The notes under the pieces are model-generated. The model made no database searches. It saw only the letters and a list, made by a program, of their open reading frames with translations, and had not been told where the DNA came from. From Escherichia coli (GTDB lineage: Bacteria; Pseudomonadota; Gammaproteobacteria; Enterobacterales; Enterobacteriaceae): a DNA stretch of 64,000 bases. This document shows positions 48,210 through 49,369 of this stretch, one piece after another. The position numbers and the translations under genes were made by a program. Location: NCBI RefSeq assembly GCF_030013595.1, contig NZ_CP122768.1. One strand, written 5' to 3'. How positions within the stretch are numbered: the first letter of the stretch is position 1; every line of letters starts with the position of its first letter.

Positions 48210-49058
48210 ATGGCGACATACCTTATTGGCGACGTTCATGGTTGTTACGATGAACTGATCGCATTGCTGCATAAAGTAGAATTTACCCCTGGGATAGATA
48301 CCCTCTGGCTGACGGGCGATCTGGTCGCGCGCGGCCCCGGTTCGCTGGATGTTTTGCGCTATGTGAAATCCTTAGGCGACAGCGTACGTCTGGTGCTGGG
48401 CAATCACGATCTGCATCTGCTGGCGGTATTTGCCGGGATAAGCCGCAATAAACCGAAAGATCGCCTGACACCGCTGCTGGAAGCGCCGGATGCCGACGAG
48501 CTGCTTAACTGGCTGCGTCGCCAGCCTCTGCTGCAAATCGACGAAGAGAAAAAGCTGGTGATGGCCCACGCAGGGATCACGCCACAGTGGGATCTACAGA
48601 CCGCCAAAGAGTGCGCGCGCGATGTAGAAGCGGTGCTGTCGAGTGACTCCTATCCCTTCTTCCTTGATGCCATGTACGGCGATATGCCAAATAACTGGTC
48701 ACCGGAATTGCGGGGGCTGGGAAGACTGCGGTTTATCACCAACGCCTTTACCCGTATGCGTTTTTGCTTCCCGAACGGGCAACTGGATATGTACAGCAAA
48801 GAATCGCCGGAAGAAGCCCCTGCCCCACTGAAACCGTGGTTTGCGATTCCTGGCCCTGTCGCTGAAGAATACAGCATCGCCTTTGGTCACTGGGCATCGC
48901 TGGAAGGCAAAGGTACGCCGGAAGGTATTTACGCGCTGGATACTGGCTGCTGCTGGGGTGGTACATTAACCTGCCTGCGCTGGGAAGATAAACAGTATTT
49001 TGTCCAGCCGTCGAACCGGCATAAGGATATGGACGAAGGAGAGGCGGTCGCGTCTTAA
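48210..49058 (+). CDS. apaH: bis(5'-nucleosyl)-tetraphosphatase (symmetrical)
   Basis: 282-aa ORF ([23 protein letters not shown]...); stop codon overlaps ccdB stop on opposite strand. Confidence 0.97.
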
Positions 49059-49369
49059 ATCCCGTCGAGCATAAAATCTAATGCCCCTTTAATCAACGTT
49101 CGGTGCGCGCTGGCATCGCAAAATTTCGTTCCCAGCGCGTTAACTGGAACAGTTGCAGTCTCATGCGTCATGAGCACATATTCTTTGCCGTCTACCAGTA
49201 AAAGGATTGTGTTAAGCCGTTCTGGAGGGCGAATACGGATAAATCGTTCAATAGGTGTTAATGGAATAACAATACGGCGATTAATCTCACCAATAATGTC
49301 GCTGGTAACATCGATAACAAAGGGAAACGCGGCGTTCCTGCCGCGACTGCGGTATACCGTAAATTGCAT
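49055..49369 (-). CDS. ccdB: CcdB-family gyrase-poison toxin homolog (104 aa), chromosomal copy
   Basis: [41 protein letters not shown]... aligns with F-plasmid CcdB ([38 protein letters not shown]...); sits directly after ccdA. Confidence 0.88.

What the first reader, a model, noticed from the sequence alone, without database searches (positions are those of the whole stretch)
49055..49369. CcdB homolog lacks the Trp-Gly-Ile C-terminus critical in F-plasmid CcdB
F-plasmid CcdB ends ...NLMFWGI, and its last three residues (Trp99-Gly100-Ile101) are reported to be essential for killing. This chromosomal homolog ends ...DFMLDGI, with Asp at the Trp position. If that change weakens gyrase poisoning, it would explain why a frameshifted ccdA can be tolerated, and would mark the locus as a decaying or repurposed module.
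Basis: partly seen in the sequence, partly recalled or inferred. Interest (0 to 1): 0.5.

Follow-up and report, generated by a model that had tools for sequence, protein, structure and literature searches.

The report
Ordinary chromosomal CcdB toxin, Asp-type C-terminus
This is the well-known chromosomal ccd toxin-antitoxin islet of E. coli. The "missing" tryptophan is the normal state for this branch of the CcdB family, so it does not explain why the broken antitoxin gene next door is tolerated.

Summary
Window 49055-49369 (-) encodes a 104-aa CcdB (Pfam PF01845, E=7e-30) ending ...DFMLDGI, and Asp102 aligns with Trp99 of F-plasmid CcdB.

The causal interpretation is not supported. The locus is the published ccdO157 islet between folA and apaH, carried by 2021 of 5426 complete E. 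coli genomes. Every allele I inspected has Asp102, including the O157:H7 allele that the literature treats as a functional gyrase toxin. In 132 diverse CcdB representatives this column is T/Q/S/D, with at most one Trp. The conserved features are all present: Asp98 (127/132; it contacts GyrA Arg462 in the V. fischeri complex), Gly103 and a hydrophobic last residue. "W99D" in these chromosomal CcdBs was already noted in print in 2020 and 2024.

The ccdA frameshift is real. It is a 1-bp deletion, the only 1-bp indel in 62.6 kb against a near-identical genome, and the same 59-aa product occurs on 44 public contigs. ccdB and the promoter region are otherwise unchanged.

The allele-specific oddity is Thr54, where 127/132 relatives and all other inspected Escherichia alleles have Pro. 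Thr54 is a better, but untested, candidate for an attenuated toxin. Neutralisation in trans by an F-plasmid CcdA remains possible. Known, decaying module; low novelty.

The parts
49055..49369 (-). ccdB, intact 104-aa ORF. The protein is identical to WP_001160962.1, a ccdO157-type chromosomal CcdB allele carrying Ile44 and Thr54.
   Evidence: ORF and translation. Pfam PF01845, E=7e-30. Identical to the CcdB of E. coli HCP5S3_I2 and 96% identical to the O157:H7 allele. AlphaFold model pLDDT 91.5, TM 0.91 to V. fischeri CcdB 4elz_C/3tcj_B.
49064..49066 (-). Codon GAC = Asp102, the position aligned with Trp99 of F-plasmid CcdB.
   Evidence: Alignments. The family column is T53/Q25/S13/D11/H7, with at most one Trp among the 132. 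Replacing it with Trp lowers the family-HMM score by 0.5 bit.
49076..49078 (-). Codon for Asp98, equivalent to V. fischeri CcdB Asp99 and F-CcdB Asn95. It lies one helical turn before Asp102.
   Evidence: Asp in 127 of 132 family representatives. V. fischeri Asp99 makes two hydrogen bonds to GyrA Arg462 (PMC5086665). The predicted helix spans residues 87-102.
49208..49210 (-). Codon ACA = Thr54, an allele-specific substitution at a nearly invariant proline.
   Evidence: Pro in 127 of 132 representatives and never Thr. All other inspected Escherichia alleles have Pro54. Reverting T54P gains 3.6 bits, the largest single change tested. The F-CcdB equivalent Pro52 is buried, with 41% mutational tolerance at the lowest expression level (PMC5062330 Table 1).
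49372..49604 (-). ccdA pseudogene: 233 nt instead of 234, otherwise identical to the gene for WP_000125566.1.
   Evidence: Three-way DNA alignment. BLAST against HCP5S3_I2 shows a single missing base at about window 49512-49513.
49425..49604 (-). The 59-aa frameshift product of ccdA. Residues 1-31 are native and the rest is out of frame, so the CcdB-binding C-terminal half is lost.
   Evidence: ORF list. The exact product is on 44 public contigs, e.g. STE03188.1, and in 73 index blocks. It has no NCBIfam hit. Comparison with the intact 77-aa sequence.
49513..49513 (-). Site of the 1-bp deletion (GCGCCACC becomes GCGCACC on the minus strand). It is not in a long homopolymer.
48210..49058 (+). 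apaH, core gene flanking the islet. Its stop codon overlaps the ccdB stop codon in TTAA (49055-49058).
   Evidence: ORF list and RefSeq annotation of the homologous locus.
49690..50169 (-). folA, core gene flanking the islet on the other side.
   Evidence: RefSeq annotation of the homologous locus. The window ORF is listed with an upstream extension.

Best explanation
The ORF is the toxin gene of the chromosomal ccdO157-type ccdAB islet that sits between folA and apaH in about 37% of complete E. coli genomes.

It belongs to the chromosomal, Vibrio-like branch of the CcdB family. In that branch the C-terminal helix presents a conserved Asp (Asp98 here) to GyrA Arg462. The position one turn later, which is Trp99 only in F-type plasmid CcdBs, is a small polar or acidic residue. 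Asp102 is therefore the native state and not a decay mark.

What is degenerate here is ccdA. A genuine, lineage-specific 1-bp deletion removes the CcdB-binding half of the antitoxin and disrupts the last helix of its DNA-binding domain. No accompanying change occurred in ccdB or in the 58 nt upstream of ccdA.

Inference: the parental CcdB allele must already have been harmless at native expression. Two factors probably contribute. The chromosomal system is reported as somewhat attenuated, and I recall a weak promoter being reported. This allele also carries a derived Pro54-to-Thr change at a buried proline conserved in 96% of the family, together with Ser44-to-Ile. This fits the published decay route, in which the toxin is inactivated first and the antitoxin later.

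Shown: gene identities, the alignment, family statistics, and the reality and distribution of the frameshift. Inferred: that Thr54 attenuates the toxin, and that the toxin is harmless in this host.
For: Identity and context:
- Pfam CcdB, E=7e-30.
- Best solved relatives are V. fischeri CcdB (E=3.5e-16) and then F-CcdB.
- AlphaFold model TM 0.91 to 4elz_C/3tcj_B.
- 2021 of 5426 complete E. coli genomes hold the islet between apaH and folA. RefSeq annotates it as CcdB/CcdA family proteins.

Trp is not a family rule:
- Column counts are T53, Q25, S13, D11, with at most one Trp.
- Asp98 is conserved in 127/132 and Gly103 in 130/132.
- D102W lowers the family-HMM score by 0.5 bit.
- A Thr-type CcdB has been crystallised with E. 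coli GyrA14 (4ELY), with Asp99 bonded to Arg462 (PMC5086665).

The same C-terminus occurs in working modules:
- The O157:H7 allele has it and is treated as a functional gyrase toxin.
- The 46 closest complete genomes keep the undeleted ccdA length.

The frameshift is real:
- It is the only 1-bp indel in 62.6 kb against HCP5S3_I2, alongside 23 SNPs.
- The identical product is on 44 contigs, and L003 is identical to the window over 621 nt.

Thr54:
- Pro in 127/132 and never Thr. It is derived within Escherichia. Reversion gains 3.6 bits. F-CcdB Pro52 is buried and mutation-sensitive at low expression.

Decay context:
- The same Thr54 allele with a 13-bp deletion and intact ccdA appears in 11,092 index blocks.
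- The literature states that toxin inactivation is the first step and antitoxin loss may follow.
Against: - No toxicity data exist for the Thr54/Ile44 allele. The primary papers (Wilbaux 2007, Mine 2009, Gupta 2017) could not be read here.
- In F-CcdB, all tested Pro52 substitutions are active at the highest expression level, so P54T may be mild.
- The intact Thr54 allele is common (at least 1000 contigs). The 46 closest complete genomes keep the undeleted ccdA length, which would also fit an active toxin that still requires its antitoxin.
- The family sample is the 150 best hits to this protein, so it under-represents F-type plasmid CcdBs.
- Trans compensation (plasmid CcdA, a gyrA mutation) was not testable from a 64-kb window.
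Confidence: 0.6

Rival explanations
1. One reading: replacing Trp99 with Asp weakens gyrase poisoning. That weakened toxin is why the ccdA frameshift is tolerated, and it marks this locus as decaying or repurposed.
For: - In F-CcdB, W99, G100 and I101 are active-site residues needed for killing (PMC5062330; PMC11205521).
- W99R makes Salmonella pSLT CcdB non-toxic and R99W restores toxicity (PMC5065971).
- The chromosomal O157 CcdB is described as somewhat attenuated (PMC10886550).
Against: - Asp102 is shared by every inspected ccdO157 allele, including the O157:H7 allele reported as functional.
- The 46 complete genomes closest at this locus keep the undeleted ccdA length, and the one translated (HCP5S3_I2) has the identical CcdB with intact CcdA. 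Asp102 therefore cannot be the change that distinguishes this locus.
- Trp is nearly absent from the family at this column.
- A Thr-type CcdB binds E. coli GyrA14 (4ELY), using the conserved Asp that is also present here.
- The pSLT case is an F-type protein, 83% identical to F-CcdB, so it has a different structural context.
- A repurposed co-repressor role is unlikely because the DNA-binding partner CcdA is destroyed.
Confidence: 0.12
2. The toxin is active but is neutralised in trans. Strains of this lineage would carry an IncF-type plasmid, or another ccdA homologue, whose CcdA binds the chromosomal CcdB. The chromosomal ccdA is then dispensable and the cell becomes dependent on the plasmid ('reverse addiction').
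For: - The chromosomal O157 CcdB is neutralised by F-plasmid CcdA, whereas the reverse does not hold (Wilbaux 2007, as reported in PMC7354431, which itself floats the reverse-addiction idea).
- A solved structure shows a chromosomal-type (V. fischeri) CcdB bound to the F-CcdA C-terminal domain (3TCJ).
- No compensating change is seen in cis.
Against: - Nothing in the 64-kb window bears on plasmid content.
- The frameshift allele occurs on 44 contigs or more, and all those genomes would have to retain such a plasmid.
- Without CcdA, autorepression should be lost, which raises the CcdB dose to be neutralised.
Confidence: 0.15
3. The host target is resistant. The lineage would carry a gyrA change such as Arg462Cys that abolishes CcdB binding, so antitoxin loss is harmless.
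For: GyrA R462C is sufficient to protect cells from F-CcdB (PMC10886550).
Against: gyrA is not in the window, so this was not tested. Such mutations are known from laboratory selection and I found no report of them in natural isolates.
Confidence: 0.04
4. The ccdA frameshift is an assembly or sequencing error, and the module is intact.
For: Many apparent ccdA frameshifts in public assemblies are artefacts. The A6-to-A5 variants (P0239, 478 contigs) mostly sit in assemblies whose folA and apaH are also fragmented.
Against: - The deletion lies in a CC dinucleotide, not a homopolymer run.
- The window has only this one 1-bp indel in 62.6 kb against a near-identical complete genome.
- Flanking genes are intact.
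- The identical allele recurs on 44 contigs from NCBI, ENA and Logan.
Confidence: 0.03

Closest known systems
ccdO157 chromosomal toxin-antitoxin system of E. coli O157:H7 (Wilbaux et al. 2007; Mine et al. 2009)
   Same: - Same insertion point between folA and apaH, and the same gene order and overlaps.
- Once the 1-bp deletion is repaired, CcdA is identical to that of O157:H7.
- CcdB is 96% identical and has the same ...DFMLDGI C-terminus.
- Decay of this system across E. coli is published.
   Different: - ccdA is frameshifted while the ccdB ORF is intact. That combination is not among the classes quoted from Mine et al. unless the toxin is inactive by missense.
- The CcdB allele differs at four residues (Gly10, Glu28, Ile44, Thr54, against Ser, Val, Ser, Pro). 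Ile44 and Thr54 are derived in this allele lineage.
Vibrio fischeri chromosomal CcdB (PDB 3JSC, 4ELY, 4ELZ, 3TCJ)
   Same: - Best sequence match among solved structures (E=3.5e-16) and best structural match (TM 0.91, rmsd 1.5 A).
- No Trp at the F-Trp99 position.
- Conserved Asp one turn earlier, which binds GyrA Arg462.
- Gly-Ile C-terminus.
   Different: - Only about 34% identical.
- Thr rather than Asp at the Trp position.
- Has the conserved Pro where the window allele has Thr54.
F-plasmid CcdB (PDB 1VUB, 3VUB, 1X75)
   Same: - Same fold (TM 0.86 to 1x75_C).
- 7 of the 9 mutationally defined active-site residues are identical: Q2, F3, Y6, S22, I24, G100 and I101.
   Different: - 36% identity.
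- Asn95 is Asp98 here and Trp99 is Asp102 here.
- Scores 57 bits against a cutoff of 147 for the NCBIfam F-type CcdB equivalog.
- Chromosomal, and not reported to mediate post-segregational killing (from my memory of Wilbaux 2007).
Salmonella pSLT CcdB(ST), a natural W99R non-toxic variant
   Same: A natural CcdB lacking Trp at position 99. It has prompted the same question in the literature.
   Different: pSLT CcdB is an F-type protein, 83% identical to F-CcdB, in which Trp is the ancestral state and R99W restores toxicity. Here the whole subfamily never had Trp at this position.

Membership tests
CcdB protein family (Pfam PF01845) | Full-length match to the family profile | tested here: met
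   Residues 2-103 match model positions 1-101 of 101, E=7.4e-30, 103.6 bits.
CcdB protein family (Pfam PF01845) | CcdB/MazF-type fold with a C-terminal helix | tested here: met
   AlphaFold2 pLDDT 91.5, helix at residues 87-102. Foldseek TM 0.91 to V. fischeri CcdB and 0.86 to the F-CcdB:GyrA14 complex chain.
CcdB protein family (Pfam PF01845) | Family-wide conserved columns (Q22, R32, V34, P36, L37, L52, P54, A96, D98, G103 in window numbering) | tested here: inconclusive
   9 of 10 are kept. Pro54 is replaced by Thr, which none of 132 representatives has.
CcdB protein family (Pfam PF01845) | Poisons DNA gyrase through GyrA | not testable with these tools
   This needs a toxicity or GyrA14-binding assay. 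I have only indirect literature on the O157 allele.
F-plasmid-type CcdB (NCBIfam NF010262 equivalog) | Score above the curated equivalog cutoff | tested here: not met
   57.4 bits against a cutoff of 147.
F-plasmid-type CcdB (NCBIfam NF010262 equivalog) | Trp99-Gly100-Ile101 C-terminus | tested here: not met
   Asp-Gly-Ile here.
ccdO157 chromosomal islet | Located between the core genes folA and apaH | tested here: met
   apaH 48210-49058 (+), ccdB, ccdA, then folA 49690-50169 (-). The literature describes this site (PMC7232551).
ccdO157 chromosomal islet | Near-identity to the O157:H7 ccdAB sequence | tested here: met
   97.7% DNA identity over 901 nt. CcdB is 96% identical.
Functional type II toxin-antitoxin module | Intact antitoxin gene encoding both the DNA-binding and the toxin-binding domains | tested here: not met
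   A 1-bp deletion truncates CcdA to 31 native residues plus 28 out-of-frame residues. The product has no NCBIfam hit.
Functional type II toxin-antitoxin module | Toxin that is lethal or growth-inhibiting when unopposed | not testable with these tools
   Survival of a lineage on 44 contigs or more with unopposed ccdB argues against it for this allele, but that is inference.

The most novel reading that the evidence does not exclude
An intact, presumably derepressed CcdB persists in a natural E. coli lineage without its cognate antitoxin. One reading is that the toxin is still active and the cells depend on a plasmid-borne CcdA ('reverse addiction' of host to IncF plasmid). Another is that Pro54-to-Thr has turned it into a sub-lethal gyrase modulator kept for a tolerance or persistence role.
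Probability: 0.1. Interest if true: 0.5.

Novelty: already known. Interest (0 to 1): 0.15.

Why it matters
It matters little beyond annotation hygiene. The case shows that rules drawn from F-plasmid CcdB mutagenesis, such as "Trp99-Gly100-Ile101 are essential", do not transfer to the chromosomal CcdB branch. Two published papers also treat Asp at this position as a possible loss-of-function "W99D variant".

One small testable point remains. Thr54/Ile44 CcdB with a frameshifted ccdA is a natural case of an orphan toxin ORF. A single toxicity assay comparing the wild-type allele, T54P and D102W would show whether the published order of TA decay, toxin first and antitoxin second, holds here.

Tried and rejected
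- **Primary papers:** I tried to read Wilbaux 2007 (PMC1855815), Mine 2009 (PMC2666520), De Jonge 2010 (PMC2820787), Saavedra De Bast 2008 (PMC2446810) and Gupta 2017 (PMC5585702). None is held. Toxicity statements therefore rest on reviews and on my memory of the abstracts.
- **P52T and W99D values in F-CcdB saturation mutagenesis:** no supplements are held, and a text search returned only unrelated 'P527' hits.
- **Are ccdA lesions enriched on the Thr54 background?** I collected other truncated CcdA products and their loci. Most were A6-run frameshifts in error-prone assemblies with fragmented folA and apaH, so no clean census was possible. A few O157-allele cases with intact flanks (L029, L030, L032) remain ambiguous.
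- **Order of events:** I first read L004 (ccdA deletion plus a 13-bp ccdB deletion) as showing that ccdA broke first and ccdB second. I rejected this after finding that the 13-bp deletion with intact ccdA is extremely common and that L004 sits on that other haplotype.
- **Promoter scan:** no strict sigma-70 consensus site was found upstream of ccdA. This is uninformative, though compatible with the weak promoter I recall being reported.
- **Internal restart for the CcdA C-terminal domain:** the only in-frame start-like codon is a TTG 15 codons from the end with no Shine-Dalgarno sequence. Rejected by inspection of the sequence.

Full report
**1. What is in the sequence**

The minus-strand ORF at 49055-49369 encodes 104 aa, [15 protein letters not shown]...[11 protein letters not shown]. 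It matches Pfam CcdB (PF01845) end to end with E=7.4e-30.

Its closest solved relatives are Vibrio fischeri CcdB (E=3.5e-16) and F-plasmid CcdB (E about 1e-9). The HMMER alignments run without gaps through the C-terminus. MAFFT gives the same register: DFMLDGI against NLMFWGI. Asp102 (GAC, 49064-49066) therefore occupies the Trp99 position, and Gly-Ile is conserved.

**2. The locus**

The gene lies between apaH (48210-49058, +) and folA (49690-50169, -), directly downstream of a ccdA remnant. A 901-nt query spanning the locus matched 2021 of 5426 complete E. coli genomes over at least 80% of its length. The rest show only the apaH and folA flanks. RefSeq annotates the two genes as 'CcdB family protein' and 'type II toxin-antitoxin system CcdA family antitoxin'.

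This is the ccdO157 islet described in E. coli O157:H7. The literature states that in K-12 the folA-apaH spacer is 77 bp and lacks these genes (PMC7232551).

The window's CcdB is identical to WP_001160962.1 of strain HCP5S3_I2. It differs from the O157:H7 allele at four residues: Gly10/Ser, Glu28/Val, Ile44/Ser and Thr54/Pro.

**3. The neighbouring ccdA is truly frameshifted**

Against intact alleles, the window lacks one base (GCGCCACC becomes GCGCACC, about 49513). It is otherwise identical to HCP5S3_I2 over 622 aligned columns, including 58 nt upstream of the ccdA start. The product keeps 31 native residues and then reads 28 out-of-frame residues. The C-terminal toxin-binding half is lost.

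The lesion is not an assembly artefact, for these reasons:
- Over 62.6 kb the window differs from HCP5S3_I2 by 23 SNPs, one 15-bp in-frame indel and this single 1-bp deletion.
- The deleted base lies in a CC dinucleotide, not a homopolymer run.
- The flanking genes are intact.
- The exact 59-aa product is recorded on 44 contigs from NCBI, ENA and Logan.
- Locus L003 (GCA_002460785.1) is identical to the window over 621 nt.

By contrast, a different and much more frequent 'frameshift' in ccdA (A6 to A5; 478 contigs) occurs mostly in assemblies whose folA and apaH are also broken. Those are probably homopolymer errors.

**4. Is Asp102 a defect?**

The evidence says no.

- *Within Escherichia.* Every full-length allele I retrieved has ...DFMLDGI (one has the variant ...DFMFDGI), always with Asp102. 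This includes the O157:H7 allele. Reviews describe that allele as a gyrase-targeting toxin, neutralised by F-plasmid CcdA and 'somewhat attenuated' (PMC10886550; PMC7354431). The 46 complete genomes closest at this locus (at least 99% identity) all show the undeleted locus length, and the one I translated encodes an intact CcdA.
- *Across the family.* I scored the protein against 1.84 billion cluster representatives (603 hits at E up to 1e-3) and aligned the 132 full-length sequences among the best 150 hits. The Trp99 column holds T 53, Q 25, S 13, D 11, H 7 and L 5, with at most one Trp.
- *What is conserved.* The conserved columns are Asp98 (127/132; F-CcdB has the rare Asn), Gly103 (130/132) and a hydrophobic last residue. 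In a family HMM built without the E. coli chromosomal alleles, D102W lowers the score by 0.5 bit, while D98N costs 2.7 bits and G103A costs 3.8 bits.
- *Structure.* The AlphaFold2 model (pLDDT 91.5) has the C-terminal helix at residues 87-102, so Asp98 and Asp102 are one turn apart. Its best structural matches are V. fischeri CcdB chains (TM 0.91), including 4ELY, a complex of that Thr-type CcdB with E. coli GyrA14. In the V. fischeri complex, GyrA Arg462 is held by two hydrogen bonds to Asp99, which is equivalent to Asp98 here. Only 3 of 10 gyrase-contact residues are shared with F-CcdB (PMC5086665). A second acidic side chain at position 102 facing Arg462 is plausibly compatible with binding. 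That last point is my inference.
- *Curated family models.* The protein is not an F-type CcdB equivalog: 57 bits against a cutoff of 147.

The requirement for Trp99-Gly100-Ile101 is real for F-CcdB (PMC5062330; PMC11205521) and for the F-like pSLT protein (PMC5065971). It is specific to that branch.

**5. Already in the literature**

Two papers on adherent-invasive E. coli state that the folA-apaH CcdB of NRG857c and CFT073 has Asp at the W99 position and ask whether it is a bona fide toxin (PMC7232551; PMC11205521). The decay of ccdO157 across E. coli is the subject of Mine et al. 2009.

PMC3879964 summarises that paper as follows: toxin inactivation is the first, safe step, antitoxin inactivation may follow, and about 2% of systems had both components inactive. 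My recollection of the abstract gives slightly different percentages but the same classes.

**6. Why is the ccdA frameshift tolerated?**

No compensating change exists in cis. ccdB and the upstream region are identical to loci that have intact ccdA. ccdB keeps its own GGAG 9 nt upstream of its ATG, and the premature ccdA stop is only about 55 nt away, so polarity is unlikely (sequence; inference). Loss of CcdA should also relieve autorepression.

The parental CcdB allele must therefore be harmless alone, or something acts in trans.

The allele has one feature that stands out. Thr54 replaces a proline that is present in 127 of 132 family representatives (never Thr), in F-CcdB, in V. fischeri CcdB and in every other Escherichia allele inspected. 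Reverting it gains 3.6 bits, the largest effect among the changes tested. The equivalent F-CcdB residue, Pro52, is buried. Only 41% of its substitutions are active at the lowest expression level, although all are active at the highest (PMC5062330 Table 1).

I therefore favour a toxin that was already attenuated by P54T, possibly together with S44I, on top of the generally mild chromosomal system. This is inference, not demonstration.

Decay is visible within this allele lineage. A 13-bp deletion of ccdB (62-aa product, still showing Ile44 and Thr54) with intact ccdA is listed in 11,092 index blocks. The same 1-bp ccdA deletion also appears on that deleted haplotype (L004), through recurrence or a short recombination tract.

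**7. Rivals**

- *Trans-neutralisation by an IncF CcdA* is credible in principle but untestable from the window.
- *A gyrA resistance allele* is equally untestable from the window, and I rate it less likely.
It cannot single out this locus.
- *Sequencing error* is unlikely (section 3).

**8. Verdict**

The causal interpretation is not supported, while the 'decaying module' label is correct and already published. Novelty is low. The only loose end worth an experiment is whether Thr54 CcdB is toxic.

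Noticed in passing
window 33877-35205 (transposase ORF 33984-35192, +): polB is split by a 1329-bp IS4-family (IS10-like) insertion sequence with a 402-aa transposase (NCBIfam NF033591, 402 bits). It is flanked by a 9-bp direct repeat, CGCCTGGCG, at 33868-33876 and 35206-35214. The element is absent from the near-identical genome HCP5S3_I2, so DNA polymerase II is probably inactivated in this strain.
   Followed up: partly
window 40296-40310: A 15-bp in-frame indel relative to HCP5S3_I2, inside the homologue of the T3SS effector gene espY1.
   Followed up: no
window ~22605: The closest complete genome (HCP5S3_I2) carries an IS2 here, between espY2 and the thiB TPP riboswitch. 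The window lacks it.
   Followed up: no
window 49055-49058: The convergent genes apaH and ccdB share their stop codons in a 4-nt TTAA overlap, so the islet abuts the core gene with no spacer.
   Followed up: no
L011-L016 (related loci), ccdB region: A 13-bp deletion in ccdB on the same Ile44/Thr54 allele, with intact ccdA, gives a 62-aa product listed in 11,092 index blocks. This dead-toxin, live-antitoxin haplotype is very widespread.
   Followed up: partly
L004 versus L003 and the window: The identical 1-bp ccdA deletion occurs on two haplotypes. One has intact ccdB (window, L003). The other has the 13-bp ccdB deletion and distinct flanking SNPs (L004). This indicates recurrence, a short recombination tract, or a chimeric metagenome scaffold.
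   Followed up: partly
L017-L038, ccdA codons 42-43 (AAAAAA run): Apparent A6-to-A5 frameshifts of ccdA are frequent in public assemblies (P0239 on 478 contigs). Most co-occur with fragmented folA, apaH and kefC, which points to homopolymer sequencing errors. A few on the O157:H7 allele have intact flanks (L029, L030, L032) and could be real.
   Followed up: partly
window 49372-49604 versus ccdB 49055-49369: Between the window and the O157:H7 alleles, ccdA shows one synonymous difference, while ccdB shows 5 nonsynonymous and 2 synonymous nucleotide changes. This fits the published claim that ccdB evolves neutrally while CcdA is conserved.
   Followed up: no
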